IMG/VR virus record: IMGVR_UViG_2654588006_000001
DNA from: a virus
Lineage: Duplodnaviria > Heunggongvirae > Uroviricota > Caudoviricetes
Reading direction: 5' to 3' (one strand)
Length of the DNA stretch: 33,854 nucleotides
In this document: in pieces, positions 2,127-26,807 of the stretch
How positions within the stretch are numbered: the first letter of the stretch is position 1
Layout: every line of letters starts with the position of its first letter
Made by a program: the position numbers and the translations under genes
Notes under the pieces: model-generated
What the model was told of the DNA's origin: nothing
Seen by the model: the letters and a program-made list of their open reading frames with translations, nothing else
Databases searched by the model: none

Positions 2127-2402
2127 ATGAGCAAGCAAGTAACACTCATGACTGATGCGATTCCTTATCAGGAGTTCGCAAAACTAATAGGAAAATCGAC
2201 AGGAGCGGTTCGTCGGATGATCGATAAAGGAAAGCTGCCTGTAATTGATATGACCGATCCACAATCAGCTTCAGGTCGTGCAGGTGAATATTGGGTATAC
2301 CTTCCGGCATGGAATAACGGACTAAAACTGGCTTATGAAAGCCGCCCTAAAGAGATTCGTGACGGCTGGTTGATGTGGTTAGGTCTCGGTGAACCACGTT
2401 AA
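2127..2402 (+). CDS. cox: Cox excisionase/repressor, 91 aa
   Basis: Position immediately right of C, divergent; length equals P2 Cox as recalled; RBS gagg upstream. Confidence 0.88.
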   Translation: MSKQVTLMTDAIPYQEFAKLIGKSTGAVRRMIDKGKLPVIDMTDPQSASGRAGEYWVYLPAWNNGLKLAYESRPKEIRDGWLMWLGLGEPR

Positions 2403-2412
2403 GGAGAACCGT

Positions 2413-2583
2413 ATGAATGAGCCTCGTTGTATTGCTCAGTTACTGCGTAACGAAAGCCCCAGGGCGATTGACTTCACCATCACCCACGGTAAGGGGCGTA
2501 AGGGAATCATTATCCGCACCAAAAAACAGAGTCCGTTAAAAAAGGCTCTGACCTTTCTGAAAAGCCGGAGGGTATGGAAATGA
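2413..2583 (+). CDS. Small hypothetical protein (P2 orf78 position)
   Basis: ATG at 2413 preceded by aaggag RBS; the track ORF from 2389 probably starts here. Synteny only. Confidence 0.6.
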   Translation: MNEPRCIAQLLRNESPRAIDFTITHGKGRKGIIIRTKKQSPLKKALTFLKSRRVWK

Positions 2584-3080
2584 CAGTGATGACGCTCAAT
2601 CTCGTTGAAAAACAGCCAGCAGCTATGCGCCGGATAATTGGCAAGCATCTTGCCGTCCCTCGCTGGCAGGATACATGTGATTATTATAATCAGATGATGG
2701 AGCGCGAACGGCTAACGGTTTGCTTTCATGCACAGTTAAAACAGCGTCACGCAACGATGCGTTTTGAAGAAATGAACGACGTCGAACGTGAACGGCTGGT
2801 TTGTGCAATTGATGAATTGCGTGGGGCATTCTCAAAACGCCGTCAGGTCGGTGCAAGTGAGTATGCATATATTAGTTTTTTAACAGTCAGCCAGCGACGT
2901 ACTTTATTTATGCACGCACGACTGACAGAAAAAGAATTCAACCAGCCGTACTGGCGAATTAATGAAGAATCATGTTACTGGCGTGATGCTTTATTCCGTG
3001 CATTACGTGAATTATTCAGTCTGTTTGAGTATGCACCGACAATTCTGACGTCGGTAAAACCAGAGCAATATCTGCATTAA
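2580..3080 (+). CDS. B: Replication protein B (helicase-loader-like), ~166 aa
   Basis: Synteny (cox-orf78-B) and length; start chosen at second ATG (MTVM…) because the RBS spacing to 2574 is too short. Confidence 0.75.
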   Translation: MTVMTLNLVEKQPAAMRRIIGKHLAVPRWQDTCDYYNQMMERERLTVCFHAQLKQRHATMRFEEMNDVERERLVCAIDELRGAFSKRRQVGASEYAYISFLTVSQRRTLFMHARLTEKEFNQPYWRINEESCYWRDALFRALRELFSLFEYAPTILTSVKPEQYLH

Positions 3081-3143
3081 ATAATTAACCAGAGTTTTTA
3101 ACGCACTTAATCGTGCGGGGCTTCTTTTTGCCTGGAGAAAGTC

Positions 3144-3368
3144 ATGCATACAGTTTCTGAAAATCAGTGCGGTAAATACGCATTACTGCTGCAACAGGCC
3201 AGAACCGAAGCACAGGCCGACGCTGCGACGCGCTTTTCTTCTCATCTTGACGCCATGATTCGCCATATCACAAAGGCGGAGTTATCCCGCGTGGAGATAG
3301 TCGAGCTGCTCAGTCAGGAGTCGGAAAAATTTCACAATATCGGATTGTCTCGCGGGGAGGTGCTTTGA
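3144..3368 (+). CDS. Hypothetical early protein (P2 orf80 position)
   Basis: Synteny between B and A; 74 aa. Confidence 0.6.
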
Positions 3369-3670
3369 TGTCCTGTTCTCATTCAGTTGTATTACTGAAT
3401 AACGCCTTAAAAATCGCCGTTATGGAAAATGGTGATTTATCTCTTATTCAACTTTGTCTTGATAAAGAAAAACGCGACATAACTGAATCTGTTATCGCGA
3501 TTTATCAGAATGAATTAAACCTCCTGTCTGATGTGGTCAATTTACTTGTTAAACGCGCTGTATTCCACAAGCAAATTTCCTCCGTGGATGAACTGACAAA
3601 ATTAACGACAGAAATCGTCAGCTATTGCGCTGATGAATTTAAGAAACTGAACGACAAAAGGAACTGGTAA
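3365..3670 (+). CDS. Hypothetical early protein (P2 orf81 position)
   Basis: Synteny; start overlaps upstream stop (translational coupling). Confidence 0.6.
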
Positions 3671-3894
3671 TGCCGGACAACGTAGATTTCATTCAGGAAC
3701 AACAGGCTGAATTACTGGAGCGCCAGATTAACGCGGCAAGGGTAAAACATTGCGGTGTTTCTGCGCTGGTTTGCGAAGAGTGTGACGTGCCAATACCTGC
3801 TGCCCGTCGTGCGGCTTATCCGTCAGCCACGCGTTGTGTTTCCTGTCAGTCAGTCTTTGAAGCAAAAAACAAACATTACCGGAGAACGGCATGA
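3670..3894 (+). CDS. TraR/DksA-type C4 zinc-finger protein (P2 orf82 position)
   Basis: CxxC…CxxC pattern (CEECDV…CVSCQ) seen in translation; synteny. Confidence 0.7.
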   Translation: MPDNVDFIQEQQAELLERQINAARVKHCGVSALVCEECDVPIPAARRAAYPSATRCVSCQSVFEAKNKHYRRTA

Positions 3895-4166
3895 GTATTC
3901 GTATTGAAATTGGCGAACGTTATGTCGTTACCAGTGACAGCTTTCAGTTTATTCTCCACGAGAAAAAGAGAGCGGAAAGCGGTAAAAACGCCGGTCAGGA
4001 ATGGCTGTCGGTGGTTGGTTATTACCCGAAATTAAGCCAGCTCGTTTCCGGCATGATGCATCACGATATTCTGACCGGAAGCGCAAAGTCTTTTGCTGAT
4101 TTAAACGCGCAGGTTGAGCAACTCAGCAAGCGTTGTTCAGAGGCTTTTGGCTCATATGGCCGTTAA
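3891..4166 (+). CDS. Hypothetical early protein (P2 orf83 position)
   Basis: Synteny; 91 aa. Confidence 0.6.
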   Translation: MSIRIEIGERYVVTSDSFQFILHEKKRAESGKNAGQEWLSVVGYYPKLSQLVSGMMHHDILTGSAKSFADLNAQVEQLSKRCSEAFGSYGR

Positions 4167-6408
4167 AGCCTCCGGGCGTTTTGTCCCTCCATCAGCATTT
4201 GCCGCAGGCACCGGTAAGGCGTTTACCGGTGCTTATGCATGGAACGCGCCACGCGAGGCTGTCGGGCGCGAAAGACCCCTTACACGTGACGAGATGCGTC
4301 AGGTGCAAGGTGTTTTATCCACGATTAACCGCCTGCCTTACTTTTTGCGCTCGCTGTTTACTTCACGCTATGACTACATCCGGCGCAATAAAAGCCCGGT
4401 GCACGGGTTTTATTTCCTCACATCCACTTTTCAGCGTCGTTTATGGCCGCGCATTGAGCGCGTGAATCAGCGCCATGAAATGAACACCGACGCGTCGTTG
4501 CTGTTTCTGGCAGAGCGTGACCATTATGCGCGTCTGCCGGGGATGAATGACAAGGAACTGAAAAAGTTTGCCGCCCGTATCTCATCGCAGCTTTTCATGA
4601 TGTATGAGGAACTCTGCGATGCATGGGTTGATGCACATGGCGAGAAAGAATCGCTGTTTACGGATGAGGCTCAGGCGCATCTGTATGGTCATGTTGCTGG
4701 CGCTGCACGAGCTTTCAATATTTCCCCTCTCTACTGGAAAAAATACCGTAAAGGACAGATGACCACGAGGCAGGCATATTCTGCCATTGCCCGTCTGTTT
4801 AACGATGAGTGGTGGACTCATCAGCTTAAAGGTCAGCGTATGCGCTGGCATGAGGCGTTACTGATTGCTGTCGGGGAGGTGAATAAAGACCGTTCTCCTT
4901 ATGCCAGTAAACATGCCATTCGTGATGTGCGTGCGCGCCGCCAGGCAAATCTGGAATTTCTTAAATCGTGTGACCTTGAAAACAGGGAAACCGGCGAGCG
5001 CATCGACCTTATCAGTAAGGTGATGGGAAGTATTTCTAATCCTGAAATTCGCCGGATGGAGCTGATGAACACCATTGCCGGTATTGAGCGTTACGCCGCC
5101 GCAGAGGGTGATGTGGGGATGTTTATCACGCTGACCGCGCCGTCAAAGTATCACCCGACACGTCAGGTCGGAAAAGGCGAAAGTAAAACCGTCCAGCTAA
5201 ATCACGGCTGGAACGATGAGGCATTTAATCCAAAGGATGCGCAGCGTTATCTCTGCCGCATCTGGAGCCTGATGCGCACGGCATTCAAGGATAATGATTT
5301 ACAGGTCTACGGTTTGCGTGTCGTCGAGCCACACCACGACGGAACGCCGCACTGGCATATGATGCTTTTTTGTAATCCACGTCAGCGTAACCAGATTATC
5401 GAAACCATGCGTCGCTACGCGCTCAAAGAGGATGGCGACGAAAGAGGAGCCGAGCGAAACCGTTTTCAGGCGAAACACCTTAACCGGGGCGGTGCTGCGG
5501 GGTATATCGCGAAATACATTTCAAAAAATATCGACGGCTATGCACTGGATGGTCAGCTCGATAACGATACCGGCAGACCTCTGAAAGATACTGCCGCGGC
5601 TGTTACTGCATGGGCGTCAACGTGGCGCATCCCGCAATTTAAAACGGTTGGTCTGCCGACAATGGGGGCTTACCGTGAACTACGCAAATTGCCTCGCGGC
5701 GTCAGCATTGCTGATGAGTTTGACGAACGCGTCGAGGCTGCACGCGCTGCCGCAGACAGTGGCGATTTTGCGTTGTATATCAGTGCGCAGGGTGGGGCAA
5801 ATGTTCCGCGCGATTGCCAGACTGTCAGAGTCGCCCGTAGCCCGTCGGATGAAGTTAACGAGTACGAGGAAGAAGTCGAGAGAGTGGTCGGCATTTACGC
5901 GCCGCATCTCGGCGCGCGTCATATTCATATCACCAGAACGACGGACTGGCGCATTGTTCCGAAAGTTCCGGTCGTGGAGCCTTTAACTTTAAAAAGCGGC
6001 ATCGCCGCGCCTCGGAGTCCTGTCAATAACTGTGGAAAGCTTACCGGTGGTGATTCTCCGGTTATGACCCCCACACCGTCTGAGCAAGCCACAGCTGTGT
6101 TAAATCTGATTGATAAAGGAGTGATTGGTTGGGATGAGCCGGATGTTATAAAGGTGCTTAACGGCGCGTTAAACGCTGGTGCGCCTCAAAAAAGCAGCCA
6201 ACAAAGAAATGCAGCATCGCTCAAACCTGCTGAACAGACGCCATCAGCCAGGCTTACCAAAGCGGAGAGGGAGCGGATACCAAAAATTCGATTTGATTTG
6301 GTTCAGAAAGATATTGTTCCTGAGTGGTGGGAGCTTGAGGTTCTTGCTCGGGGAGCGAAAGTGCATTTTGGATATAAAGTATTCAAATATCACAATAATG
6401 ATAAATAG
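4156..6408 (+). CDS. A: Rolling-circle replication initiator gpA (HUH endonuclease)
   Basis: HUH motif (…EPHHDGTPHWHMMLF…) and paired tyrosines (GYIAKYISK) in translation; synteny. Start uncertain: the track ORF begins at 4114, 4156 (MAVKASGRF) minimises overlap with the upstream gene. Confidence 0.9.
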   Translation: MAVKASGRFVPPSAFAAGTGKAFTGAYAWNAPREAVGRERPLTRDEMRQVQGVLSTINRLPYFLRSLFTSRYDYIRRNKSPVHGFYFLTSTFQRRLWPRIERVNQRHEMNTDASLLFLAERDHYARLPGMNDKELKKFAARISSQLFMMYEELCDAWVDAHGEKESLFTDEAQAHLYGHVAGAARAFNISPLYWKKYRKGQMTTRQAYSAIARLFNDEWWTHQLKGQRMRWHEALLIAVGEVNKDRSPYASKHAIRDVRARRQANLEFLKSCDLENRETGERIDLISKVMGSISNPEIRRMELMNTIAGIERYAAAEGDVGMFITLTAPSKYHPTRQVGKGESKTVQLNHGWNDEAFNPKDAQRYLCRIWSLMRTAFKDNDLQVYGLRVVEPHHDGTPHWHMMLFCNPRQRNQIIETMRRYALKEDGDERGAERNRFQAKHLNRGGAAGYIAKYISKNIDGYALDGQLDNDTGRPLKDTAAAVTAWASTWRIPQFKTVGLPTMGAYRELRKLPRGVSIADEFDERVEAARAAADSGDFALYISAQGGANVPRDCQTVRVARSPSDEVNEYEEEVERVVGIYAPHLGARHIHITRTTDWRIVPKVPVVEPLTLKSGIAAPRSPVNNCGKLTGGDSPVMTPTPSEQATAVLNLIDKGVIGWDEPDVIKVLNGALNAGAPQKSSQQRNAASLKPAEQTPSARLTKAERERIPKIRFDLVQKDIVPEWWELEVLARGAKVHFGYKVFKYHNNDK

Positions 6409-6499
6409 GGGTGTGATTTCACTTCTTGTAAGTAGTAACATCAGAAGATTCCGATTACCGTTTGTCTTATTAGTTGCGTTTAAAAAGAGGTATTTTTAG

Positions 6500-7972
6500 A
6501 TGGTTGAAAATTTGAGTGAGATTAGAACATCGACCGTGACTGCATTGTTAGAGAAGGTAAGGCAGAATAATTATGGGAAGTATCTGTTAAAAGCTAAAAT
6601 TGGGCGAATTCGCGGATTTTCGGGAGAAGATATTACTTTTGAATTTCCTGTTACAGCCTTGGTTGGTCCTAATGGTAGTGGAAAATCCTCTGTTCTCGGC
6701 GTTGCAGGATGTGCCTATAAAGAAATTAAGCCTAGCGTTTTCTTTCCCAAAAGTGCAATTGGTGATGAAAGCATGGCGGGGTGGAAAGTTGAATATGATA
6801 TAATTGATAAAGTTATTAATCCTCGACAAACAGTTCGCAGAACTAGTAGTTTTAGAAGCGCTAAATGGGCGAGAGATGAAGTATTATCTAGAGATGTATA
6901 TTTCTTTGGTATCGAACGGACTGTCCCTGCTGGCGAGAAGACAAAGTACAAAAAGTTAACCCGTTCCTCTTACCAACATACAGGCAGTTTATCAACGTTG
7001 AGTGCAAATGTCGCAAAACAAATAGAACATATTTTGGGCAAGGATGTGTCTGCTTTTAATGTGACAGATATTGGCCATGATGAAAAGTTTTTTGTAGGCA
7101 ATAATAATGGTAGCCGTTATTCTGAATTCCATTTTGGTGCGGGTGAGTCATCAATTATAAGAATGGTTTCTGAGATAGAGAATGCATCTGATAACAGTTT
7201 GGTTCTTATTGAAGAAATTGAAAATGGGCTGCATCCGGTAGCAACGAGACGAATGGTCGAATATCTAATTGATGTTGCCAGTCGTAAATCAATTCAGGCT
7301 GTTTTTACCACACATAGTGATTATGCCCTGATGCCATTACCACAGGAAGCAATATGGGCATGTATTGATGGACGTCTTAGAAAAGGACGGTTAACTGTTG
7401 AATCTTTAAGGGCTATATCTGGTAGGGTTGACAAAAAATTAGCTATCTTTGTTGAGGATGAGTTTGCTAAATGCTGGGTTGATACTATTCTTCGGGAAAG
7501 ATTAGGTAGTGATTATGATCAATTAGAAGTACATGCCGTCGCTGGCGATGGAAATGCTGTATCTATTCATAAGTCACACAAGGCAAATCCTTCAATTAAA
7601 TTTAAATCGCTTTGTATTATTGACGGAGATTCTTCACAAGAAGATAGTGATGAAAATGGTGTCTTTAGATTGCCGGGGACTCAACCTGAACGTAGTGTAT
7701 TCGATGACATACTTGTGAAAATTGATAATATATTGGCAATACTTACTGTTTCTTGCCAACTGCCTCCAGAATCTCAAGGTAAAGTGAGAACAGTGGTTGA
7801 ATCTGTTTCAAGAACGAATCGAGATCCCCATCTTATTTTTAATCAAATAGGCATGGAATTAGGCTTCATTTCAGAAGTGATTATTCGGGGTGCATTTTTA
7901 AGCCTTTGGGCAAGGCAAAATGAAGATTATTGTAGTGATTTAGTAAACAAAGTTAAGGCCCTTCTGGATTGA
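6500..7972 (+). CDS. ABC-type ATPase with C-terminal Toprim-like domain (OLD-family-like), 490 aa; candidate defence cargo
   Basis: Walker A GPNGSGKSS; Walker B/D-loop LVLIEEIENGLHP; H-loop FTTHS; C-terminal acidic motifs IFVEDE and IIDGDS resembling Toprim E and DxD; aagagg RBS; visibly AT-rich; occupies the slot between A and cos. Confidence 0.75.
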   Translation: MVENLSEIRTSTVTALLEKVRQNNYGKYLLKAKIGRIRGFSGEDITFEFPVTALVGPNGSGKSSVLGVAGCAYKEIKPSVFFPKSAIGDESMAGWKVEYDIIDKVINPRQTVRRTSSFRSAKWARDEVLSRDVYFFGIERTVPAGEKTKYKKLTRSSYQHTGSLSTLSANVAKQIEHILGKDVSAFNVTDIGHDEKFFVGNNNGSRYSEFHFGAGESSIIRMVSEIENASDNSLVLIEEIENGLHPVATRRMVEYLIDVASRKSIQAVFTTHSDYALMPLPQEAIWACIDGRLRKGRLTVESLRAISGRVDKKLAIFVEDEFAKCWVDTILRERLGSDYDQLEVHAVAGDGNAVSIHKSHKANPSIKFKSLCIIDGDSSQEDSDENGVFRLPGTQPERSVFDDILVKIDNILAILTVSCQLPPESQGKVRTVVESVSRTNRDPHLIFNQIGMELGFISEVIIRGAFLSLWARQNEDYCSDLVNKVKALLD

Positions 7973-7987
7973 TTAGCACTTTGTGGA

Positions 7988-8020
7988 GATCTGGAGGATT
8001 TTCTCCAGATCTTATTATTT
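7988..8020 (+). terminator. Rho-independent terminator after the ATPase cargo gene
   Basis: 9-bp stem gatctggag / ctccagatc, loop gatttt, followed by T-rich tract ttattattt. Confidence 0.7.
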
Positions 8021-8149
8021 GAGTCATGTATTACTAGGTTGCATCTATTTGCATTTGTTTTTGATGTCATTCTGTACCTTTTTTGTCAGGCCTGACGTGG
8101 TTTCAGATTACTGAGGCACTTGCATCAAAACCGCCCCATGAAGCGGGCG

Positions 8150-8168
8150 GGCGAGGCGGGGAAAGCAC
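8150..8168. other. cos cohesive-end site (ggcgaggcggggaaagcac)
   Basis: Exact match to the 19-nt P2 cohesive end as I recall it; located between the cargo gene and Q, as expected in a prophage. Confidence 0.8.
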
Positions 8169-8337
8169 TGCGCGCTGGCGGTGGTGCTGATTTTATTTTT
8201 TCAGCGTCTGAGCGCGTCGTAATGGCGCTTAGTCTGCCCGTTGAGGCGTTGGTGTGTCTGCGGGGTGTTTTGTGCGGTGGTGAGCGTGTGAGGGCGTGAT
8301 GACGGGGTGTAAAAAAGCCGCCCGCAGGCGGCGATGT

Positions 8338-9372
8338 TCAACCGTTGTCAGTGTCCAGTGAGTAGTTTTTAAAGCGGATGACCTCCTGACCGAGCCAGCC
8401 GTTTATTTCCCGAATTCTGTCCTGTAACGGGATAAGCTCATTGCGGACAAAGACCTTTGCCACTTTCTCAATATCTCCCAGTGACCCGACGTTCTCCGGC
8501 TTGCCGCCCATCAACTGAAAGGGGATACGGTGCGCGTCCAGCAGGTCAGCGGCGCTGGCTTTTTTGATATTAAAAAAATCGTCCTTCGTTGCCACTTCAC
8601 TGAGCGGGATAATTTTAATGCCGTCGGCTTTCCCCTGTGGGGCATAGAGAAACAGATTTTTAAAGTTATTGCGGCCTTTCGACTTAACCATGTTTTCGCG
8701 AAGCATTTCGATATCGTTGCGGTCCTGCACGGCATCGGTGACGTACATGATGTATCCGGCATGTGCGCCGTTTTCGTAATACTTGCGGCGGAACAGCGTG
8801 GCCGACTCATTCAGCCAGGCAGAGTTAAGGGCGCTGAGATATTCCGGCAGGCCGTACAGCTCCTGATTAATATCAGGCTCCAGCAGGTGAAACACGGAGC
8901 CGGGCGCGAAGGCTGTCGGCTCGTTGAAGGACGGCACCCACCAGTAAACATCCTCCTCCACGCCACGACGGGTATATTTGGCCGGTGAGGTTTCCAGTCT
9001 GATTACCTTACCGGTGGTGCTGTAACGCTTTTCCAGAAACGCATTACCGAACACCAGAAAATCCAGCACAAAGCGGCTGAAATCCTGCTGGGAAATCCAC
9101 GGATGCGGGATAAATGTCGAGGCCAGAATATTGCGTTTGACGTAAATCGGTGAGCTGTGATGCACGGCAGCACGCAGGCTTTTCGCCAGACCGGTAAAGC
9201 TGACCGGCGGCTCATACCATCTGCCGTTACTGATGCACTCGACGTAATCCAGAATGTCACGGCGGTCGAGTACCGGCACCGGCTCACCAAAGGTGAAAGC
9301 CTCCATTTTCGGGGCGCTGGCGGTCATTTTTTTTGCCTCAGGTTGCGGTGTTTTCCCTTTTTTCTTGCTCAT
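8338..9372 (-). CDS. Q: Portal protein gpQ, 344 aa
   Basis: Synteny next to cos; length equals P2 Q as recalled; start ATG overlaps P stop (TGATG). Confidence 0.9.
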   Translation of the reverse strand: MSKKKGKTPQPEAKKMTASAPKMEAFTFGEPVPVLDRRDILDYVECISNGRWYEPPVSFTGLAKSLRAAVHHSSPIYVKRNILASTFIPHPWISQQDFSRFVLDFLVFGNAFLEKRYSTTGKVIRLETSPAKYTRRGVEEDVYWWVPSFNEPTAFAPGSVFHLLEPDINQELYGLPEYLSALNSAWLNESATLFRRKYYENGAHAGYIMYVTDAVQDRNDIEMLRENMVKSKGRNNFKNLFLYAPQGKADGIKIIPLSEVATKDDFFNIKKASAADLLDAHRIPFQLMGGKPENVGSLGDIEKVAKVFVRNELIPLQDRIREINGWLGQEVIRFKNYSLDTDNG

Positions 9373-16637: not shown

Positions 16638-17067
16638 TGCCGTCACGGTGCTGAAAACTAACCCCGATATGCTTCGGATATTCGTGGATAACGGGAGTAT
16701 TGCCTCCACACTGGCGACGTCGCTGTCATTCGAAAAGCGTTACACGCTCAATGTCATTGTGACCGATTTTACCGGTGATTTTGACCTGCTCATCGTGCCG
16801 GTGCTGGCGTGGCTGCGGGAAAATCAGCCCGACATCATGACCACCGACGAAGGCCAGAAAAAAGGCTTCACGTTTTATGCAGACATCAACAATGACAGCA
16901 GCTTTGATATCAGTATCAGCCTGATGCTGACCGAACGCACGCTGGTCAGTGAGGTGGGCGGCGCGCTGCATGTGAAGAATATCCCGGAACCCCCGCCGCC
17001 GGAGCCGGTCACCCGCCCGATGGAGCTTTATATCAATGGCGAACTGGTGAGTAAGTGGGATGAATGA
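16600..17067 (+). CDS. R: Tail completion protein gpR, 155 aa
   Basis: Synteny and length. Confidence 0.85.
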   Translation: MLKPDSLRRALTDAVTVLKTNPDMLRIFVDNGSIASTLATSLSFEKRYTLNVIVTDFTGDFDLLIVPVLAWLRENQPDIMTTDEGQKKGFTFYADINNDSSFDISISLMLTERTLVSEVGGALHVKNIPEPPPPEPVTRPMELYINGELVSKWDE

Positions 17068-17512
17068 GTTTAAGCGTTTTGAAGACCGGCTGACCGGACT
17101 GATTGAGTCGCTGTCACCGTCTGGGCGTCGGCGACTGAGTGCCGAACTGGCGAAACGTCTGCGGCAGAGTCAGCAGCGTCGGGTGATGGCACAGAAAGCC
17201 CCGGACGGCACACCCTACGCGCCACGCCAGCAGCAGAGCGTCAGAAAAAAGACCGGTCGCGTTAAGCGAAAAATGTTTGCGAAACTTATTACCAGTCGTT
17301 TTTTGCATATCCGTGCCAGCCCGGAGCAGGCATCAATGGAATTTTACGGCGGGAAGTCGCCGAAAATCGCCAGTGTGCATCAGTTTGGTCTGTCGGAAGA
17401 AAACCGGAAAGACGGTAAGAAAATTGATTATCCGGCGCGTCCCCTGCTCGGCTTTACCGGTGAGGATGTGCAGATGATTGAAGAGATTATCCTGGCTCAC
17501 CTTGAGCGTTAG
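17060..17512 (+). CDS. S: Tail completion protein gpS, 150 aa
   Basis: Synteny and length. Confidence 0.85.
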   Translation: MNEFKRFEDRLTGLIESLSPSGRRRLSAELAKRLRQSQQRRVMAQKAPDGTPYAPRQQQSVRKKTGRVKRKMFAKLITSRFLHIRASPEQASMEFYGGKSPKIASVHQFGLSEENRKDGKKIDYPARPLLGFTGEDVQMIEEIILAHLER

Positions 17513-17583: not shown

Positions 17584-18369
17584 TTATGAGTGATTTTTAT
17601 TTGATGCTTTGTATTCTAAAACCTTCTTATTGGCGTAAAAGAATTTTGTATATGACAGGAATATAACCAGACCTGAAGTGAAATAGACGAGGGATAGTAT
17701 TAATAATGCTTTTTTGTGACTGTTATTATCTTTAATCTCCTGGCTTAACCATTCGGAGTCCTCCTCGTTTAGCTGTAAGAGCTTATTGCAGGCGATCTCA
17801 GGAAGTGTGTCTTTTATAAATACGTTTTGCAGTTTCTTGCAATCGGCAAGGCTATAAGTTTTATTAAATTCAACTGCTTTATTTTTGAAGGATAAAAGAA
17901 CTTTGTCACTATAAACATAGTACATCATGTTTTTATATGGTATGCCTATGGCATCCCTTACTATAACGGATTGTTTGTTGTGTATGTAACATGCGAGGAG
18001 AATGTAAAAAATACTGGTCAGAATTACAATTATTGTTTTAATTATGTGTGGTGGTTTTGTTATGTCACCCCAGATGCGAGTAAGGAAAAAATACGATGTT
18101 TTTAGTTTTCCATCAATCAGTCCCTGCTGTATCATTCTCACATTTTCAATGCCTGATACATTGATTCCGTTAATTATTTTAAATAGTTGAATGTCGCGCC
18201 ACTCGCGGTCAAGTCTTTTTAATTTTTTGTCTGAATATCCAAAATTGAAATAATGTGCAATAAGCCTCATAAGGTTACTTTTACCAAAGCTAAAAAATGC
18301 TAATACTGCAAAGCTACAAAGGAAAAAAACGATTAGCCCCCACACATTAGTCACATTATAGCTGACCAT
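17584..18369 (-). CDS. AT-rich three-TM membrane protein, 261 aa (P2 orf30 position); candidate moron
   Basis: Strong RBS aaggag 6 nt before ATG; hydrophobic helices near residues 10-28, ~98-120 and ~225-245; opposite strand to the flanking late operons; visibly AT-rich. Confidence 0.8.
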   Translation of the reverse strand: MVSYNVTNVWGLIVFFLCSFAVLAFFSFGKSNLMRLIAHYFNFGYSDKKLKRLDREWRDIQLFKIINGINVSGIENVRMIQQGLIDGKLKTSYFFLTRIWGDITKPPHIIKTIIVILTSIFYILLACYIHNKQSVIVRDAIGIPYKNMMYYVYSDKVLLSFKNKAVEFNKTYSLADCKKLQNVFIKDTLPEIACNKLLQLNEEDSEWLSQEIKDNNSHKKALLILSLVYFTSGLVIFLSYTKFFYANKKVLEYKASNKNHS

Positions 18370-18452
18370 TACGCTCTCCTTGAATGTTGTCTGGTAGTTC
18401 TACAAATGAATCCAGATAGCATAACTTTTATATATTGTGCAATCTCACATGC

Positions 18453-19088
18453 ATGAACACTCTCGCAAATATTCAGGAACTCGCGCGCGCACTGCGCAAC
18501 ATGATTCGCACCGGCATTATCGTCGAAACCGACCTTAACGCCGGTCGCTGCCGCGTGCAGACCGGCGGCATGTGCACCGACTGGCTTCAGTGGCTGACCC
18601 ATCGCGCCGGTCGTTCGCGCACATGGTGGGCACCTTCCGTGGGAGAACAGGTGCTGATTCTGTCCGTGGGCGGTGAACTCGACACGGCATTCGTTCTGCC
18701 GGGGATTTATTCCGGCGATAACCCCGCGCCGTCTGCGTCGGCGGATGCCCTGCATATCCGTTTCCCTGACGGGGCGGTGATTGAGTATGAACCCGAAACC
18801 AGTGCACTTACGGTAAGCGGAATTAAAACGGCCAGCGTGACGGCTTCTGATTCTGTTACTGCCACGGTGCCGGTGGTCATGGTGAAAGCATCAACCCGCG
18901 TCACCCTGGACACACCGGAGGTGGTCTGCACCAACAGGCTGATTACCGGCACGCTGGAAGTGCAGAAGGGCGGGACGATGCGCGGCAACATTGAACACAC
19001 CGGCGGTGAACTCTCATCAAACGGTAAGGTACTGCATACCCATAAACACCCCGGCGACAGTGGCGGCACAACAGGGGGACCTCTATGA
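18453..19088 (+). CDS. V: Baseplate spike gpV, 211 aa
   Basis: Synteny; start at MNTLANIQ gives 211 aa. Confidence 0.88.
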   Translation: MNTLANIQELARALRNMIRTGIIVETDLNAGRCRVQTGGMCTDWLQWLTHRAGRSRTWWAPSVGEQVLILSVGGELDTAFVLPGIYSGDNPAPSASADALHIRFPDGAVIEYEPETSALTVSGIKTASVTASDSVTATVPVVMVKASTRVTLDTPEVVCTNRLITGTLEVQKGGTMRGNIEHTGGELSSNGKVLHTHKHPGDSGGTTGGPL

Positions 19089-20878: not shown

Positions 20879-23101
20879 ATGAGCACAAAATTCAGAACCG
20901 TTATCACCACTGCTGGTGCAGCAAAGCTGGCAGCGGCAACCGCGCCGGGAGGGCGGAAGGTCAACATTACCACGATGGCCGTCGGGGATGGCGGTGGTAA
21001 ATTGCCTGTCCCGGATGCCGGACAGACCGGGCTTATCCACGAAGTCTGGCGACATGCGCTGAACAAAATCAGCCAGGACAAACGAAACAGTAATTATATT
21101 ATCGCAGAGCTGGTTATTCCGCCGGAGGTGGGCGGTTTCTGGATGCGTGAGCTTGGCCTGTACGATGATGCTGGAACGTTAATTGCCGTGGCGAACATGG
21201 CTGAAAGTTATAAGCCAGCTCTTGCCGAAGGCTCAGGGCGTTCGCAGACCTGCCGCATGGTCATCATCGTCAGCAGTGTGGCCTCAGTGGCGCTGACCAT
21301 TGACACCACAACGGTGATGGCAACGCAGGATTACGTTGATGACAAAATTGCAGAACATGAACAGTCACGACGTCACCCGGACGCCTCGCTGACCGCCAAA
21401 GGTTTTACTCAGTTAAGCAGTGCGACCAACAGCACGTCTGAAACACTCGCCGCAACACCAAAAGCGGTAAAAGCAGCATATGACCTTGCTAACGGGAAAT
21501 ACACTGCACAGGACGCCACCACAGCGCGAAAAGGCCTTGTCCAGCTCAGTAGTGCCACCAACAGCACGTCTGAAACGCTCGCCGCAACACCAAAAGCGGT
21601 AAAAGCAGCATATGACCTTGCTAACGGGAAATACACTGCACAGGACGCCACCACCGCGCGAAAAGGCCTTGTCCAGCTCAGTAGCGCCACCAACAGCGAT
21701 TCTGAAACGCTTGCGGCAACGCCAAAGGCGGTTAAGACAGCGTATGACCTTGCTAACGGGAAATACACTGCACAGGATGCCACCACGGCGCGAAAAGGTC
21801 TTGTCCAGCTCAGTAGCGCCACCAACAGTGATTCTGAAACGCTGGCTGCAACACCAAAAGCGGTGAAGTCTGCCTATGACAATGCTGAAAAACGTCTTCA
21901 GAAAGATCAGAACGGTGCGGATATTCCTGATAAAGGACGCTTCCTGAGTAACATTAATGTTTACAGCAAAGGTGAAGTGGATAAGAAAAAGGGAATGCGA
22001 AAGTATTCGTTTGCAGCCCCTGCAAATGTCGTTGCCGGGAAGTGGTATCCCGTTATCTTTCGCCGTGCTGCCAGCCTTTCAGGAGAAATGGCATCCCGCG
22101 TCGTTATTTCAACTGGTTGTTATAACGGCGATTATGTAATGAATAACTGCGAGTTTAATGGCATGGTTATGCCCGGAGGCTGGACCGATCGTGGTTCATA
22201 TGCGGCAGGTTATTTCTGGACGTATCAGACTAATGAGCGTTCAATCCATTCCATTGTTACAAGCCTGAAAGATGATGATGTATGTAGTGTTTTTTATGTT
22301 GAAGCCAGAGCTTTCCCAGTACAAATTCTTGCAGAGGAAGGGCTAACGGTTATTGTTCCGACAGAGGATTATGTCGTCGGTCAGACGACATATAAGTGGG
22401 GGGCAACTAATCCCGCTACAGAAAGCACGAACGTACAGGCTATTCTGGATTTTAAAAATGGACGTGGTTATTACTGTTCACATCCATTTATTTCCAGCCT
22501 TTCAGGAAATGCTGCAACAGCCTCAAAACTCGAAACACCGAGGAAAATAGCAGGTGTTGCCTTTGATGGTTCTGGAGATATTACCCTTAATGCCAGAAAT
22601 GTCGGTGCATTTGCACTTCGGCAGACAGGTAATACGGTTAATGGTGATACAGCCGTTGGATGGAATTGGGACAGTGGCGCATACAACGCTCTGATTGGGG
22701 GAGCATCTGCATTAATTCTTCACTTTAATATAAATGCTGGTAGCTGCCCGGCTGTACAGTTTCGTGTGAATTATAAAAATGGCGGTATATCTTACAGGTC
22801 AGCCCGTGATGGTTATGGTTTTGAATCTGGCTGGTCTGATTTCTATACCACAACACGAAAACCATCAGCGGGAGATGTTGGTGCATACACCAAAGCTGAA
22901 TCAGATTCTCGCTATGTCCGGGATATTCGCCTGGGCACTCGTGTTGTTCAGACCATGCAGAAAGGGGTTATGTATGAGAAAGCAGGGCACGTAATTACAG
23001 GGCTTGGTATTGTCGGTGAAGTCGATGGTGATGACCCCGCAGTATTCAGACCGATACAAAAATACATCAATGGCACATGGTATAACGTCGCACAGGTGTA
23101 A
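20879..23101 (+). CDS. H: Tail fibre protein gpH, 740 aa, with tandem fibre repeats and divergent C-terminus
   Basis: Conserved N-terminus, then about 3.6 tandem copies of a 44-aa motif (…LSSATNS-SETLAATPKAVK-AYDLANGKYTAQDATTARKG…); longer than the P2 H I recall. Confidence 0.9.
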   Translation: MSTKFRTVITTAGAAKLAAATAPGGRKVNITTMAVGDGGGKLPVPDAGQTGLIHEVWRHALNKISQDKRNSNYIIAELVIPPEVGGFWMRELGLYDDAGTLIAVANMAESYKPALAEGSGRSQTCRMVIIVSSVASVALTIDTTTVMATQDYVDDKIAEHEQSRRHPDASLTAKGFTQLSSATNSTSETLAATPKAVKAAYDLANGKYTAQDATTARKGLVQLSSATNSTSETLAATPKAVKAAYDLANGKYTAQDATTARKGLVQLSSATNSDSETLAATPKAVKTAYDLANGKYTAQDATTARKGLVQLSSATNSDSETLAATPKAVKSAYDNAEKRLQKDQNGADIPDKGRFLSNINVYSKGEVDKKKGMRKYSFAAPANVVAGKWYPVIFRRAASLSGEMASRVVISTGCYNGDYVMNNCEFNGMVMPGGWTDRGSYAAGYFWTYQTNERSIHSIVTSLKDDDVCSVFYVEARAFPVQILAEEGLTVIVPTEDYVVGQTTYKWGATNPATESTNVQAILDFKNGRGYYCSHPFISSLSGNAATASKLETPRKIAGVAFDGSGDITLNARNVGAFALRQTGNTVNGDTAVGWNWDSGAYNALIGGASALILHFNINAGSCPAVQFRVNYKNGGISYRSARDGYGFESGWSDFYTTTRKPSAGDVGAYTKAESDSRYVRDIRLGTRVVQTMQKGVMYEKAGHVITGLGIVGEVDGDDPAVFRPIQKYINGTWYNVAQV
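21401..21880. repeat. Tandem 132-bp repeats (about 3.6 copies) inside H
   Basis: Near-identical 132-nt units read directly from sequence; also the source of artefactual antisense ORFs. Confidence 0.9.
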
Positions 23102-23104
23102 TTT

Positions 23105-23632
23105 ATGCAGCATTTAAAAAATATTACTGCGGGTAATCCCAAAACTGTTGCTCAATATCAACTGACAAAAAATTTTGATGTTATCTGGTTATGGTCCGAA
23201 GACGGAAAAAACTGGTATGAGGAAGTAAGTAATTTTCAGGAAGACACGATAAAGATTGTTTACGACGAGAATAATATAATTGTCGGCATCACCCGAGATG
23301 CTTCAACGCTTAACCCTGAAGGTTTTAGCGTTGTTGAGGTTCCTGATATTACTGCCAACCGACGTGCTGATGACTCAGGTAAATGGATGTTTAAGGATGG
23401 TGCCGTGATTAAGCGGATTTATACGGCAGACGAACAGCAGCAACTGGCAGAATCACAAAAGGCAACTTTGCTTTCCGAAGCCGAATCCGTGATTTTGCCG
23501 CTGGAACGCGCTGTCAGGCTGAATATGGCGACGGATGAGGAACGCAGCCGACTGGAAGCATGGGAACGCTACAGCGTTCTGGTCAGTCGTGTGGATCCTG
23601 CAAATCCCGAATGGCCGGAAATACCGCAATAA
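23105..23632 (+). CDS. G: Tail fibre assembly chaperone gpG, 175 aa
   Basis: Immediately downstream of H; length as recalled for P2 G. Confidence 0.85.
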
Positions 23633-23971: not shown

Positions 23972-25018
23972 GTGATATTTTCTACAAAGAAAAATATATG
24001 GAATAACGTCATCGCGGGTACAAAAATGACTATAAAAAAAACATATGTAACACCAACAGAAATAGTGAAATATTTTTATGACAAACCGGAAAACGATAAC
24101 GTAAAAGAGAGAAAAACAATTGAGAGCCTGACCCGTCTCAAACCTGAGTGGGAAAATACTCTCGATATGATGAAGTTAATACGCAATTGTGAAAAGCTAG
24201 CAACTGAAGGTATTTTAATGGAATTATCTTCAGGACATACTCTTTTGGACCGTTGCTATTTCGCACCGAATTTCAATGAATCAGATGCGAAATATGGAAA
24301 GTATGATTTTATAGCTGATGGATTTGAGTCAATCATAGACCGCCTTAGTCCTTCCGTTTTACCTGTTGTTGTTGAAAAAAGTGATGGTTCACATGATCTT
24401 GGTACTAGTTTTATTGTTGGGAATAACCACACGATATTTACAGCCAGACATGTTATTGAAGACATGAAGAGTATCAGGATACTTAGAGCTGGTGGTGAGG
24501 CTTTACCAATACATAAAATCTTTGTATCTAACGATGAACGTATTGATATCGCTTTAGTTTTCACAACCATTCCGAATGAAGATAATATTCAACCACTTAA
24601 GGTCTCAACCAAAGCCTCGGTACTGGATGAAATTTTATCAATAGGATTTCCACCCATTCCAGGATTTGATGCATTAAAGTTATATGACGTTTCGCATATA
24701 AATTCGTTTGTCCGACTGTCAAAGGGGCGAATTGTTGGTTCTGGTCACTCTTACTTAGATTCACAAGACTTTTTATTATTCAATGCTAGGGTTAAGGGGG
24801 GGAATAGCGGTGGCCCTATAATTAACAAATACGGCTTTGTTATTGGTATGCTTGTACAAATACCAATATCATCTGAGGACAGTTCAAAGATTGATAACCT
24901 TGGATATGGTATAGCTGTAACAGGAAAAAGCCTGCTGGATGCTATTACATTTACAGAAAATGGCCGCGAATTAACACTCACCGACCGAGGAAATGGAGAA
25001 TATTCAACTCTAGCATAA
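23972..25018 (+). CDS. Cytoplasmic trypsin/HtrA-like serine peptidase with ~135-aa unknown N-terminal domain, 348 aa; candidate defence cargo
   Basis: Catalytic-triad motifs in order: GTSFIVGNNHTIFTARHV (His), DIALVF (Asp), GGNSGGPII (Ser); no signal peptide or TM; visibly AT-rich; in the G/FI slot. Start may be GTG 23972 or ATG 24026. Confidence 0.8.
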   Translation: MIFSTKKNIWNNVIAGTKMTIKKTYVTPTEIVKYFYDKPENDNVKERKTIESLTRLKPEWENTLDMMKLIRNCEKLATEGILMELSSGHTLLDRCYFAPNFNESDAKYGKYDFIADGFESIIDRLSPSVLPVVVEKSDGSHDLGTSFIVGNNHTIFTARHVIEDMKSIRILRAGGEALPIHKIFVSNDERIDIALVFTTIPNEDNIQPLKVSTKASVLDEILSIGFPPIPGFDALKLYDVSHINSFVRLSKGRIVGSGHSYLDSQDFLLFNARVKGGNSGGPIINKYGFVIGMLVQIPISSEDSSKIDNLGYGIAVTGKSLLDAITFTENGRELTLTDRGNGEYSTLA

Positions 25019-25496: not shown

Positions 25497-25520
25497 GGCG
25501 GATTGTCCGCCTTTTCTTTA
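25497..25520 (+). terminator. Rho-independent terminator upstream of FI
   Basis: GC-rich 6-bp stem ggcgga / tccgcc, loop ttg, followed by ttttcttta. Confidence 0.55.
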
Positions 25521-25616
25521 TCTGTTGTTTCATCCACTGACCAGCCAGGTCAAATAGCGTCTCATGCTCTGCACAACAGAAAATACCACTCACCCATTAA
25601 CCACGGAGTTAGACGG

Positions 25617-26807
25617 ATGAGTGACTATCATCACGGCGTGCAGGTGCTGGAGATTAACGACGGCACCCGCGTCATTTCCACCGTATCCACGGCCATTGTC
25701 GGCATGGTCTGCACGGCCAGCGATGCGGATGCGGAAACCTTCCCCCTCAATAAACCGGTGCTGATTACCAACGTGCAGAGCGCAATTGCAAAGGCCGGTA
25801 AAAAAGGCACGCTGGCGGCGTCGTTGCAGGCCATCGCTGACCAGTCAAAACCGGTCACCGTTGTCGTGCGCGTGGAAGACGGCAACGGCGATGACGAAGA
25901 AACGAAACTTGCGCAGACCGTTTCCAATATCATCGGCACCACCGACGAAAACGGTCAGTACACCGGACTGAAAGCCCTGCTGGCGGCGGAGTCGGTAACC
26001 GGTGTTAAACCGCGTATTCTCGGTGTGCCGGGACTGGACACCAAAGAGGTTGCCGTCGCACTGGCATCAGTCTGTCAGAAGCTGCGCGCTTTCGGGTATA
26101 TCAGCGCATGGGGCTGTAAGACCATTTCCGAGGTGAAAGCCTACCGCCAGAATTTCAGCCAGCGTGAGCTGATGGTCATCTGGCCGGATTTCCTCGCATG
26201 GGATACGGTCGCCAGTACCACCGCTACCGCGTATGCCACCGCCCGTGCGCTGGGTCTGCGCGCTAAAATCGACCAGGAGCAGGGCTGGCATAAAACGCTG
26301 TCCAACGTCGGGGTGAACGGTGTTACCGGCATCAGCGCGTCCGTATTCTGGGATTTGCAGGAGTCCGGCACCGATGCTGACCTGCTTAACGAGTCAGGCG
26401 TCACAACGCTGATTCGCCGTGACGGTTTCCGCTTCTGGGGTAACCGTACCTGCTCTGATGACCCGCTGTTCCTCTTTGAAAACTACACCCGCACCGCGCA
26501 GGTGCTGGCCGACACGATGGCTGAGGCGCACATGTGGGCGGTGGACAAGCCCATCACCGCAACGCTGATTCGCGACATCGTTGACGGCATCAATGCCAAA
26601 TTCCGTGAGCTGAAAACAAACGGCTATATCGTGGATGCGACCTGCTGGTTCAGCGAAGAATCCAACGATGCGGAAACCCTCAAGGCCGGAAAACTGTATA
26701 TCGACTACGACTATACACCGGTGCCTCCTCTTGAAAACCTGACCCTGCGCCAGCGTATTACCGATAAATACCTGGCAAATCTGGTCACCTCGGTTAACAG
26801 CAATTAA
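25617..26807 (+). CDS. FI: Tail sheath protein gpFI, 396 aa
   Basis: Start at MSDYHHGVQVLEI (internal ATG of the track ORF); 396 aa; synteny. Confidence 0.92.
   Translation: MSDYHHGVQVLEINDGTRVISTVSTAIVGMVCTASDADAETFPLNKPVLITNVQSAIAKAGKKGTLAASLQAIADQSKPVTVVVRVEDGNGDDEETKLAQTVSNIIGTTDENGQYTGLKALLAAESVTGVKPRILGVPGLDTKEVAVALASVCQKLRAFGYISAWGCKTISEVKAYRQNFSQRELMVIWPDFLAWDTVASTTATAYATARALGLRAKIDQEQGWHKTLSNVGVNGVTGISASVFWDLQESGTDADLLNESGVTTLIRRDGFRFWGNRTCSDDPLFLFENYTRTAQVLADTMAEAHMWAVDKPITATLIRDIVDGINAKFRELKTNGYIVDATCWFSEESNDAETLKAGKLYIDYDYTPVPPLENLTLRQRITDKYLANLVTSVNSN

What the first reader, a model, noticed from the sequence alone, without database searches (positions are those of the whole stretch)
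6500..7972. Single ABC-ATPase plus Toprim-like (OLD-family-like) gene occupying the tin/old slot
Between replication gene A and cos, where P2 carries tin and old, this element has one 490-aa AT-rich gene with its own RBS and terminator. The N-terminal half has clear ABC/AAA_15-type motifs (GPNGSGKSS; LVLIEEIENGLHP; FTTHS). The C-terminal ~200 aa has two acidic motifs (IFVEDE and IIDGDS) that resemble the Toprim glutamate and DxD signatures. That makes it a compact OLD-like nuclease candidate, shorter than the P2 Old I recall, with no partner gene. Whether it is a divergent Old, a fused PARIS-like or Gabija-like unit, or something new cannot be settled from sequence alone.
Basis: partly seen in the sequence, partly recalled or inferred. 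Interest (0 to 1): 0.75.

Follow-up and report, generated by a model that had tools for sequence, protein, structure and literature searches.

The report
Known HEC-04 defence gene, P2 prophage
This gene is an exact copy of HEC-04, a single-protein ATPase-plus-nuclease already shown by experiment to protect E. coli against phages such as T4 and T5, and it sits in the well-documented defence-gene slot of a P2-like prophage, so it is real and correctly read but not new.

Summary
Window 6500..7972 (+) is a 490-aa, AT-rich, stand-alone gene between P2 replication gene A and cos/portal gene Q. It has ABC-ATPase motifs (K62 Walker A, Walker B LVLIEE, FTTHS) and a C-terminal Toprim domain (E319; D375-G-D377).

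It is not new. The protein is identical to RefSeq WP_044502283.1. That is the very protein Payne et al. (bioRxiv 10.1101/2024.01.29.577857) cloned and tested as "HEC-04". It reduced plaquing of several coliphages, and the K62A and E319A/D375A/D377A mutants lost defence. PADLOC's HEC-04 model matches it end to end (E = 4.6e-225). A near-identical allele is already listed as a single-gene arrangement in the P2 hotspot table of Rousset et al. 2022.

It is not an orthologue of P2 Old, which shares only the ATPase motifs. It also fails the defining tests for PARIS, Gabija and retron I-B.

The likely mechanism is an ATP-dependent switch controlling a metal-dependent Toprim nuclease. Substrate and trigger are unknown.

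Verdict: already known, low interest.

The parts
6500..7972 (+). HEC-04 gene (490 aa): ABC-type ATPase (~aa 27-295) fused to an OLD-type Toprim plus helical domain (~aa 310-490). Identical to WP_044502283.1.
   Evidence: ORF; PADLOC HEC-04 E = 4.6e-225 over residues 6-489; identical to the RefSeq CDS and to the tested protein; Pfam AAA_21/AAA_15; fold searches.
6665..6691 (+). Walker A / P-loop codons GPNGSGKSS (aa 56-64; K62).
   Evidence: invariant in 45 homologues; K62A abolishes defence (Payne et al.).
7199..7237 (+). Walker B / D-loop region LVLIEEIENGLHP (aa 234-246). The ABC signature-like GAGESS lies at aa 213-218 and the H-loop FTTHS at aa 269-273.
   Evidence: these residues are invariant or nearly so.
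7445..7462 (+). Toprim glutamate motif IFVEDE (aa 316-321; E319), at the end of predicted strand 314-318.
   Evidence: E319A is part of the defence-dead triple mutant.
7616..7633 (+). Toprim DxD motif IIDGDS (aa 373-378; D375, D377), at the end of predicted strand 369-374.
   Evidence: D375A/D377A are part of the defence-dead triple mutant.
6485..6490 (+). Shine-Dalgarno AAGAGG, 9 nt upstream of the ATG.
   Evidence: Read directly from the sequence. DNA similarity to the Leclercia copy begins at 6480, so the RBS travels with the ORF.
7986..8013 (+). 12-bp hairpin after the stop codon (terminator-like, with a weak T-tract).
6174..8120 (.). Variable cargo island of the P2 gpA-gpQ hotspot (no homology to P2). 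It replaces P2 orf91, tin and old, and the 3' end of gene A.
   Evidence: blastn against P2 NC_001895; low GC.
4156..6408 (+). P2-type replication endonuclease gene A (left border of the hotspot).
   Evidence: 96% DNA identity to P2 up to 6173.
8150..8168 (+). P2 cos cohesive-end 19-mer GGCGAGGCGGGGAAAGCAC (exact).
   Evidence: matches cosR of NC_001895.
8338..9372 (-). Portal gene Q (right border of the hotspot).

Best explanation
The gene is HEC-04, a stand-alone anti-phage defence protein. It is carried here as lysogenic-conversion cargo in the gpA-cos-gpQ defence hotspot of a P2-like E. coli prophage, where P2 itself carries tin and old.

Shown in the literature, on this exact protein:
- Expressed in E. 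coli, it lowers plaquing of several coliphages by orders of magnitude. A later paper summarises the spectrum as T4 and T5 but not T7 or lambda.
- Defence needs the Walker A lysine K62 and the Toprim metal ligands E319/D375/D377.
- Induced over-expression appeared toxic.

Shown here:
- Identity to that protein.
- An ABC-ATPase N-terminal half and an OLD/AriB-type Toprim C-terminal half, with all catalytic residues conserved across the family.
- No partner gene or RNA in any context examined.

Inferred mechanism:
- The ABC-type ATPase half acts as an ATP-dependent sensor or switch, probably through head-to-head dimerisation as in OLD, GajA and AriA.
- On infection it licenses the fused Toprim domain to cut nucleic acid by two-metal catalysis.
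- This stops phage replication, possibly at a cost to the infected cell (abortive infection).
- The trigger and the substrate (phage DNA, host DNA or tRNA) are unknown.
For: Identity:
- The window protein equals the CDS annotated WP_044502283.1 in E. coli 789.
- Payne et al. Table S2 names WP_044502283.1 as the tested HEC-04. The 399 aa and 399 nt of it that are held match the window exactly.
- PADLOC HEC-04: E = 4.6e-225, 746 bits, profile positions 4-489 of 494.

Function:
- Defence phenotype, K62A and E319A/D375A/D377A loss of function, and toxicity with IPTG.
- Phage spectrum T4/T5 but not T7 or lambda.

Fold:
- AF2 full-length model, pLDDT 80. Best PDB match is Thermus OLD 6p74, E = 7.5e-12.
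- C-terminal domain model, pLDDT 90.5, pTM 0.86.
- Foldseek top hits are class 2 OLD C-terminal regions 6njx/6nk8 (E ~5e-4, probability 1.00), then PARIS 8ux9.
- Predicted topology puts E319 and DGD at strand ends, as in Toprim.

Conservation: K62, E238/E239, H272, E319, D320 and D375 are invariant and D377 is >= 90% conserved in 45 homologues of 66-93% identity.

Single-gene, mobile cargo:
- The same slot in 11 of 5,426 complete E. coli genomes.
- The same slot in a Serratia P2/186-like prophage, a different slot in a Leclercia lambdoid prophage, and chromosomal or mobile-element sites in Achromobacter. The gene is alone in every case.
- Allele WP_028985815 is listed as a one-gene P2 locus in Rousset 2022 Table S5.
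Against: - No nuclease activity, substrate, trigger or oligomeric state has been demonstrated for HEC-04. The mechanism is inferred from relatives that differ among themselves (Old: exonuclease; GajA: DNA nicking; AriB: tRNA cleavage).
- Sequence profiles do not recognise the C-terminal half as Toprim. There is no Pfam hit at E <= 10, and only a marginal retron I-B ATPase-Toprim hit (E = 0.0099).
- Foldseek TM-scores are 0.45-0.48, just under 0.5.
- The published defence assay used a plasmid with a supplementary inducible promoter, not a lysogen.
- I found no convincing sigma-70 promoter upstream. No upstream DNA is shared with the Leclercia copy beyond the RBS. Expression from the prophage is therefore assumed, not shown.
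- The primary source is a preprint.
Confidence: 0.9

Rival explanations
1. It is a divergent, shortened orthologue of P2 Old. Like Old, it would be an exonuclease that excludes lambda by responding to RecBCD inhibition and kills recB/recC hosts.
For: It occupies the same slot as old in P2. It has the same ATPase-Toprim order. The best full-length structural hit is a class 1 OLD nuclease (6p74).
Against: BLASTP against P2 Old finds only the ATPase motifs: 30% identity over 100 aa plus the P-loop, with nothing in the Toprim half. P2 Old belongs to its own PADLOC family (E = 1.3e-214), which is not among the window protein's top matches. HEC-04 is reported not to protect against lambda. The gene is on the opposite strand relative to old in P2.
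Confidence: 0.04
2. It is functionally a fused PARIS. The ATPase half would sense phage anti-restriction proteins such as Ocr, and the Toprim half, like AriB, would cleave host tRNA to abort infection.
Confidence: 0.12
3. It works like Gabija GajA. It would be a DNA-nicking Toprim endonuclease held inactive by cellular ATP and released when phage replication depletes nucleotides, here without the GajB helicase.
For: GajA structures appear among full-length and C-terminal structural hits. PADLOC GajA models match the Walker B region.
Confidence: 0.08
4. It is not primarily a defence gene but a phage replication or DNA-topology accessory that happens to follow gene A.
For: It is co-oriented with gene A, only 91 nt downstream, with no recognisable promoter of its own. 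ATPase-Toprim pairs also occur in topoisomerases, a point raised for IbfA.
Against: Direct experimental defence phenotype for this exact protein. It is absent from P2 itself and from most P2-like prophages (11 of 5,426 genomes). It has foreign base composition. It also occurs alone in unrelated prophages and non-phage sites.
Confidence: 0.02

Closest known systems
HEC-04 (Hma-embedded candidate 04; Payne et al., bioRxiv 10.1101/2024.01.29.577857; PADLOC PDLC04149)
   Same: Identical protein (WP_044502283.1). Same residue numbering for K62, E319, D375 and D377, and a single-gene system.
   Different: Nothing at the protein level. Only the context differs from the name: this copy lies in a P2-prophage hotspot, not inside an Hma system. 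The tested allele has the same accession as P2-prophage copies. The preprint text does not mention prophages or hotspots.
IbfA of IncI1-type plasmids (R64, pUA1135; PMC12111858)
   Same: Same ATPase-Toprim fusion. The two align over 393 aa with the P-loop, VEDD/VEDE and DGD motifs in register. IbfA hits the PADLOC HEC-04 model at E = 9e-42. It interferes with phages and has an abortive-infection phenotype.
   Different: Only 24% identity, 518 aa, plasmid-borne next to proQ/finO. The reported phage spectrum differs: P22-like phages, and historically lambda and T7.
P2 Old / class 1 OLD-family nucleases (e.g. Thermus scotoductus OLD, PDB 6p74)
   Same: A stand-alone gene with an N-terminal ABC ATPase and a C-terminal Toprim bearing E and DxD metal ligands. 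P2 Old occupies the same hotspot. 6p74 is the best full-length structural match.
   Different: About 100 aa shorter than P2 Old. Sequence similarity is limited to the ATPase motifs. It is a different PADLOC family, with no Pfam Toprim or OLD hit. No lambda exclusion is reported.
PARIS (AriA ABC ATPase + AriB DUF4435 Toprim; PDB 8v46, 8ux9)
   Different: No DUF4435 signature. The ATPase half is much smaller than AriA's 55 kDa. No activity against T7 is reported.
Retron type I-B ATPase-Toprim effector (PADLOC PDLC02914; class 3 OLD, e.g. retron Eco8, PDB 9p4j)
   Same: Apart from HEC-04 itself, this is the only profile that aligns across both domains (aa 52-398, E = 1.4e-15), and the only other one to touch the isolated C-terminal domain.
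   Different: No reverse transcriptase gene and no retron ncRNA in the island.
Gabija GajA (class 4 OLD)
   Same: ABC ATPase plus Toprim nuclease used in phage defence. It is a structural neighbour.

Membership tests
HEC-04 (PADLOC PDLC04149) | Full-length match to the family profile | tested here: met
   E = 4.6e-225, 745.8 bits, protein 6-489 on profile 4-489 of 494. The C-terminal 200 aa alone score E = 5.4e-75.
HEC-04 (PADLOC PDLC04149) | Identity or near-identity to the experimentally tested representative WP_044502283.1 | tested here: met
   The window translation equals the CDS annotated WP_044502283.1. The first 399 aa and 399 nt printed in Payne Table S2 match exactly.
HEC-04 (PADLOC PDLC04149) | Catalytic residues needed for defence: K62, E319, D375, D377 | tested here: met
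   All four are present at those positions and conserved in the family.
HEC-04 (PADLOC PDLC04149) | Single-gene system (ATPase fused to Toprim, no partner) | tested here: met
   No other gene or Rfam RNA lies between gene A and cos. The gene is alone in the Serratia, Leclercia and Achromobacter contexts.
HEC-04 (PADLOC PDLC04149) | Embedded in an Hma (helicase-methylase-ATPase) system. This is the origin of the name, not a requirement of the model. | tested here: not met
   Here, and in the inspected E. coli and Serratia copies, the gene sits in the P2 gpA-gpQ slot. Payne et al. expected most copies to lie outside Hma.
OLD-family nucleases (class 1, stand-alone, e.g. P2 Old) | N-terminal ABC-type ATPase with Walker A/B, signature and H-loop | tested here: met
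   Pfam AAA_21 at 9e-18 and AAA_15 at 3e-16; motifs; structural hits to OLD, PtuA and GajA ATPases.
OLD-family nucleases (class 1, stand-alone, e.g. P2 Old) | C-terminal Toprim fold with conserved Glu and DxD metal ligands | tested here: met
OLD-family nucleases (class 1, stand-alone, e.g. P2 Old) | Sequence-level membership (P2 Old profile or a Pfam OLD-type Toprim family) | tested here: not met
   There is no Pfam family for aa 281-490 at E <= 10. BLASTP against P2 Old finds only ATPase motifs. P2 Old scores 712 bits on PADLOC 'Old', and that model is not among the window protein's top 25.
OLD-family nucleases (class 1, stand-alone, e.g. P2 Old) | Metal-dependent nuclease activity on DNA | not testable with these tools
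   No biochemistry is reported for HEC-04 in the papers read.
PARIS (AriA/AriB or merged AriAB) | AAA_15/AAA_21 ATPase | tested here: met
   PADLOC AriA models at E ~1e-19 on aa 134-276.
PARIS (AriA/AriB or merged AriAB) | DUF4435 (PF14491) Toprim domain, the detection rule of Rousset et al. 2022 | tested here: not met
   There is no DUF4435 hit for the whole protein at E <= 1 or for the C-terminal half at E <= 10. PADLOC shows no AriB or AriAB hit on the C-terminal 200 aa. The rule is quoted.
Gabija (GajA + GajB) | GajA-type ATPase-Toprim protein with an adjacent UvrD-like helicase GajB | tested here: not met
   GajA models match only aa ~227-273. There is no helicase gene in the island or next to homologues.
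Retron type I-B (RT + ncRNA + ATPase-Toprim effector) | Adjacent reverse transcriptase and msr-msd ncRNA | tested here: not met
   The effector-type profile matches (E = 1.4e-15, aa 52-398). However, there is no RT-sized ORF and no Rfam hit at E <= 1 in 6000-8400.
P2 gpA-gpQ (cos-proximal) defence hotspot (Rousset et al. 2022) | Variable cargo between replication gene A and portal gene Q, next to cos | tested here: met
   Gene order; exact cos 19-mer; P2 homology breaks at 6173 and 8121. Allele WP_028985815 is listed in their Table S5 as 'AAA_15/AAA_21/AAA_23'.

The most novel reading that the evidence does not exclude
Probability: 0.15. Interest if true: 0.45.

Novelty: already known. Interest (0 to 1): 0.12.

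Why it matters
It matters little as a discovery. The protein, its domain architecture, its catalytic residues and its anti-phage activity are already published for this exact sequence. The P2 slot it occupies is a textbook defence hotspot in which a near-identical allele has already been catalogued.

Two small points of value remain.
- The experimentally tested "Hma-embedded" HEC-04 allele is in fact P2-prophage cargo replacing old and tin. The preprint does not state this. It explains how the gene moves: the same slot in Serratia P2/186-like prophages, and other slots in lambdoid prophages.
- The mechanism (trigger, substrate, oligomeric state) is still open. This compact one-protein OLD/AriB relative is therefore a convenient system for asking how ABC-ATPase sensors gate Toprim nucleases.

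Tried and rejected
- **P2 Old orthology.** Direct BLASTP against P2 Old (NC_001895) found only ATPase motifs, and the two fall in different PADLOC families. Rejected.
- **Gabija and retron I-B.** There is no helicase, RT or ncRNA partner. Rejected.
- **Hidden partner gene or RNA in the island.** There are only short overlapping ORFs, no RefSeq CDS and no Rfam match.
- **Own promoter.** The sigma-70 scan found nothing upstream of 6500 above background. By eye there is only a weak TTGGAT-17-CACAAT inside the end of gene A. The Leclercia copy shares DNA only from 6480. A cassette-borne promoter is therefore not supported.
- **Sequence search of the PDB, with the single sequence and with a 45-member profile.** It reached only ATPase regions of PtuA, OLD and retron ATPases and never the Toprim half. 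The fold had to be tested by structure prediction.
- **An apparent 67.5% DNA match of 7120-7646 to 'P2'.** This turned out to be the phiE094 homologue, stored in the same file as the P2 locus. It is not a P2 match.
- **The 2026 NAR P2/P4 hotspot paper.** No supplementary files are held, so I could not check whether it lists HEC-04 in P2.

Full report
**1. The observation**

Window 6500..7972 (+) is a single ATG-initiated ORF of 490 aa. GC is 0.37-0.40 over 6501-8000, against 0.52-0.58 in the surrounding phage genes.

- GPNGSGKSS at aa 56-64 (Walker A, K62)
- LVLIEEIENGLHP at aa 234-246
- FTTHS at aa 269-273
- IFVEDE at aa 316-321 (E319)
- IIDGDS at aa 373-378 (D375, D377)

An AAGAGG Shine-Dalgarno lies 9 nt before the ATG. 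A 12-bp hairpin at 7986-8013 follows the stop codon, although its T-tract is weak.

**2. Context**

Upstream is the P2-type replication endonuclease gene A. Downstream are portal gene Q (8338..9372, -) and terminase gene P. The exact 19-nt P2 cohesive-end sequence is at 8150-8168, with 0.01 matches expected by chance.

DNA homology to phage P2 (NC_001895) runs at 96% up to 6173 and resumes at 8121. The foreign island is therefore about 6174-8120. It replaces P2's orf91, tin and old, and the last ~78 codons of gene A.

No other RefSeq CDS, no sizeable independent ORF and no Rfam RNA lies in the island. The window over 3501-9500 is 100% identical to a prophage of E. coli strain 789.

**3. What it is**

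Pfam recognises only the N-terminal half as an ABC/SMC-like ATPase: AAA_21 at 9e-18 and AAA_15 at 3e-16. It finds nothing in the C-terminal 210 aa, even at E <= 10.

PADLOC matches the whole protein to one model, HEC-04, at E = 4.6e-225 (746 bits; profile positions 4-489 of 494).

The source of that model is Payne et al. (bioRxiv 10.1101/2024.01.29.577857). [quoted passage not shown]
- It reduced plaquing of coliphages.
- It lost defence in a Walker A mutant (K62A) and in a Toprim metal-site mutant (E319A, D375A, D377A).
- It appeared toxic when induced.

Their Table S2 gives the tested protein as WP_044502283.1 from E. coli MOD1-EC5853. That same accession annotates the 100%-identical gene in E. 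coli 789. Its translation equals the window protein, and the 399 aa and 399 nt held from Table S2 match the window exactly.

The window therefore encodes the experimentally characterised HEC-04 itself. A later paper summarises its spectrum as T4 and T5 but not T7 or lambda. It also identifies the plasmid gene ibfA as a homologue.

**4. Independent check of the fold**

I built a 45-sequence alignment (66-93% identity to the query).
- The full-length AlphaFold2 model has mean pLDDT 80. Its best PDB match is the class 1 OLD nuclease of Thermus scotoductus (6p74, E = 7.5e-12), followed by PtuA-type and GajA ATPases.
- Residues 296-490 modelled alone gave pLDDT 90.5 and pTM 0.86.
- Foldseek placed the Toprim-containing C-terminal regions of class 2 OLD nucleases first (6njx and 6nk8, E ~5e-4, probability 1.00, TM 0.45-0.48). 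PARIS 8ux9, Ts OLD and GajA followed.

E319 and D375-G-D377 sit at the C-terminal ends of predicted strands 314-318 and 369-374, which is the canonical Toprim arrangement. K62, E238/E239, H272, E319, D320 and D375 are invariant, and D377 is >= 90% conserved.

The first (a full-length match to a characterised protein) is met.

**5. What it is not**

- **P2 Old.** P2 Old (586 aa) shares only the P-loop and the Walker B/H-loop region with this protein: 30% identity over 100 aa and nothing in the Toprim half. It belongs to a separate PADLOC family (E = 1.3e-214).
- **PARIS.** As operationally defined (ATPase plus DUF4435), PARIS is excluded because DUF4435 and the AriB/AriAB models do not match.
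- **Gabija.** GajA models touch only ~50 residues, and no helicase neighbour exists.
- **Retron type I-B.** The ATPase-Toprim effector profile is the only other model spanning both domains (aa 52-398, E = 1.4e-15). However, there is no reverse transcriptase or ncRNA.
- **IbfA.** It is a true but distant relative: 24% identity over 393 aa with the catalytic motifs in register, and 141 bits on the HEC-04 model.

**6. Distribution**

- The gene is in 11 of 5,426 complete E. coli genomes, always chromosomal. It lies between gene A and the portal gene in the copies inspected.
- A one-gene arrangement with the allele WP_028985815 is already listed in the P2-locus table (Table S5) of Rousset et al. 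2022, which defined this hotspot.
- The family keeps ~67-70% identity across Gamma- and Betaproteobacteria.
- It comprises 124 clusters (at 50% identity) with E <= 1e-30. The ~490-aa fused architecture persists down to ~30% identity.
- A 76% homologue occupies the same gpA-portal slot in a Serratia P2/186-like prophage. An 88% homologue lies in a Leclercia lambdoid prophage. Achromobacter copies lie in assorted chromosomal or mobile sites. The gene is alone in every case.
- Only the ORF and its RBS are shared at the DNA level with the Leclercia copy (6480-7945). No convincing promoter was found.

**7. Mechanism**

Shown for this exact protein, by others: anti-phage activity, dependence on the ATPase P-loop and on the Toprim metal ligands, and toxicity on over-expression.

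Shown here: identity, fold, conservation, single-gene status and prophage-cargo context.

Inferred from established knowledge of OLD-family nucleases, GajA and PARIS:
- The ABC-type ATPase half acts as an ATP-dependent sensor or switch.
- It licenses the fused Toprim domain to cleave nucleic acid by two-metal catalysis.
- The outcome is probably abortive.

Trigger and substrate are unknown. The near-equal structural similarity to AriB (a tRNase) and to the OLD nucleases (DNases) leaves both substrate classes open. The reported T4/T5-but-not-lambda spectrum resembles what Tin, rather than Old, contributes in P2.

**8. Verdict**

The element is nonetheless already known: an exact copy of the characterised HEC-04 in the already-described P2 defence hotspot. 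Interest is low. The only residual value is the note that the tested "Hma-embedded" allele is P2-prophage cargo, together with the still-open mechanism.

Noticed in passing
window 23972..25018 (+): A second AT-rich cargo gene (GC ~0.37, 348 aa) lies between the tail-fibre assembly gene (23105..23632) and tail sheath gene FI (25503..26807), which is the slot where P2 carries Z/fun. The C-terminal half is a trypsin-like serine protease (Pfam Trypsin_2, E = 2.9e-17, aa 144-293). The N-terminal ~130 aa are unassigned, with only a weak hit to CTD12 of ABC-3C systems (E = 0.004). PADLOC gives only domain-level hits to protease modules of RT-Protease_XI, LmuA and HamA. RefSeq calls it 'S1 family peptidase'. 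It is present in 41 of 5,426 E. coli genomes. It is a plausible uncharacterised defence candidate.
   Followed up: partly
window 17584..18369 (-): A third AT-rich cargo gene (GC 0.36, 261 aa) lies between the tail-completion gene (17060..17512) and gpV (18435..19088), which is the P2 orf30 slot. It appears to carry hydrophobic segments. It has no Pfam or PADLOC match and is annotated 'hypothetical protein'. It is present in 464 of 5,426 E. coli genomes.
   Followed up: partly
window 6174..6408 (3' end of gene A): Homology to P2 gene A ends at 6173, about 78 codons before the stop. The C-terminal tail of the replication endonuclease is therefore part of the variable, lower-GC island rather than of the conserved gene.
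   Followed up: partly
window 20879..23101 (+), about 21400-21870: The tail-fibre gene contains about four tandem copies of a ~45-aa unit (…SSATNS[TD]SETLAATPKAVK.AYDLANGKYTAQDATTARKGLVQL…), visible in the translation.
   Followed up: no
L004 (Burkholderia phage phiE094, NC_055911) 2328..3940: A 66.5%-identical HEC-04 homologue in a Burkholderia P2-family phage (Tigrvirus) is annotated as two overlapping CDS (gp49 and gp48). This suggests a frameshift or a sequencing error. It lies next to the integrase rather than in the gpA-cos slot, and a 570-aa 'cytidine deaminase' gene follows it.
   Followed up: no
L008 3784..5582 and L010 5323..7121 (Achromobacter): The same unannotated gene pair (103 aa + 494 aa, no Pfam hits) lies next to the HEC-04 homologue in two different Achromobacter contexts, upstream in one and downstream in the other. 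It could be another mobile or defence module travelling in the same islands. It is absent from the enterobacterial loci.
   Followed up: no
L005/L006 (Leclercia) 6001..7473: The 88%-identical homologue sits in a lambdoid prophage, between a DinI gene and a 628-aa DNA methylase and on the opposite strand to its neighbours. The same defence gene is therefore exchanged between unrelated temperate phage types.
   Followed up: partly
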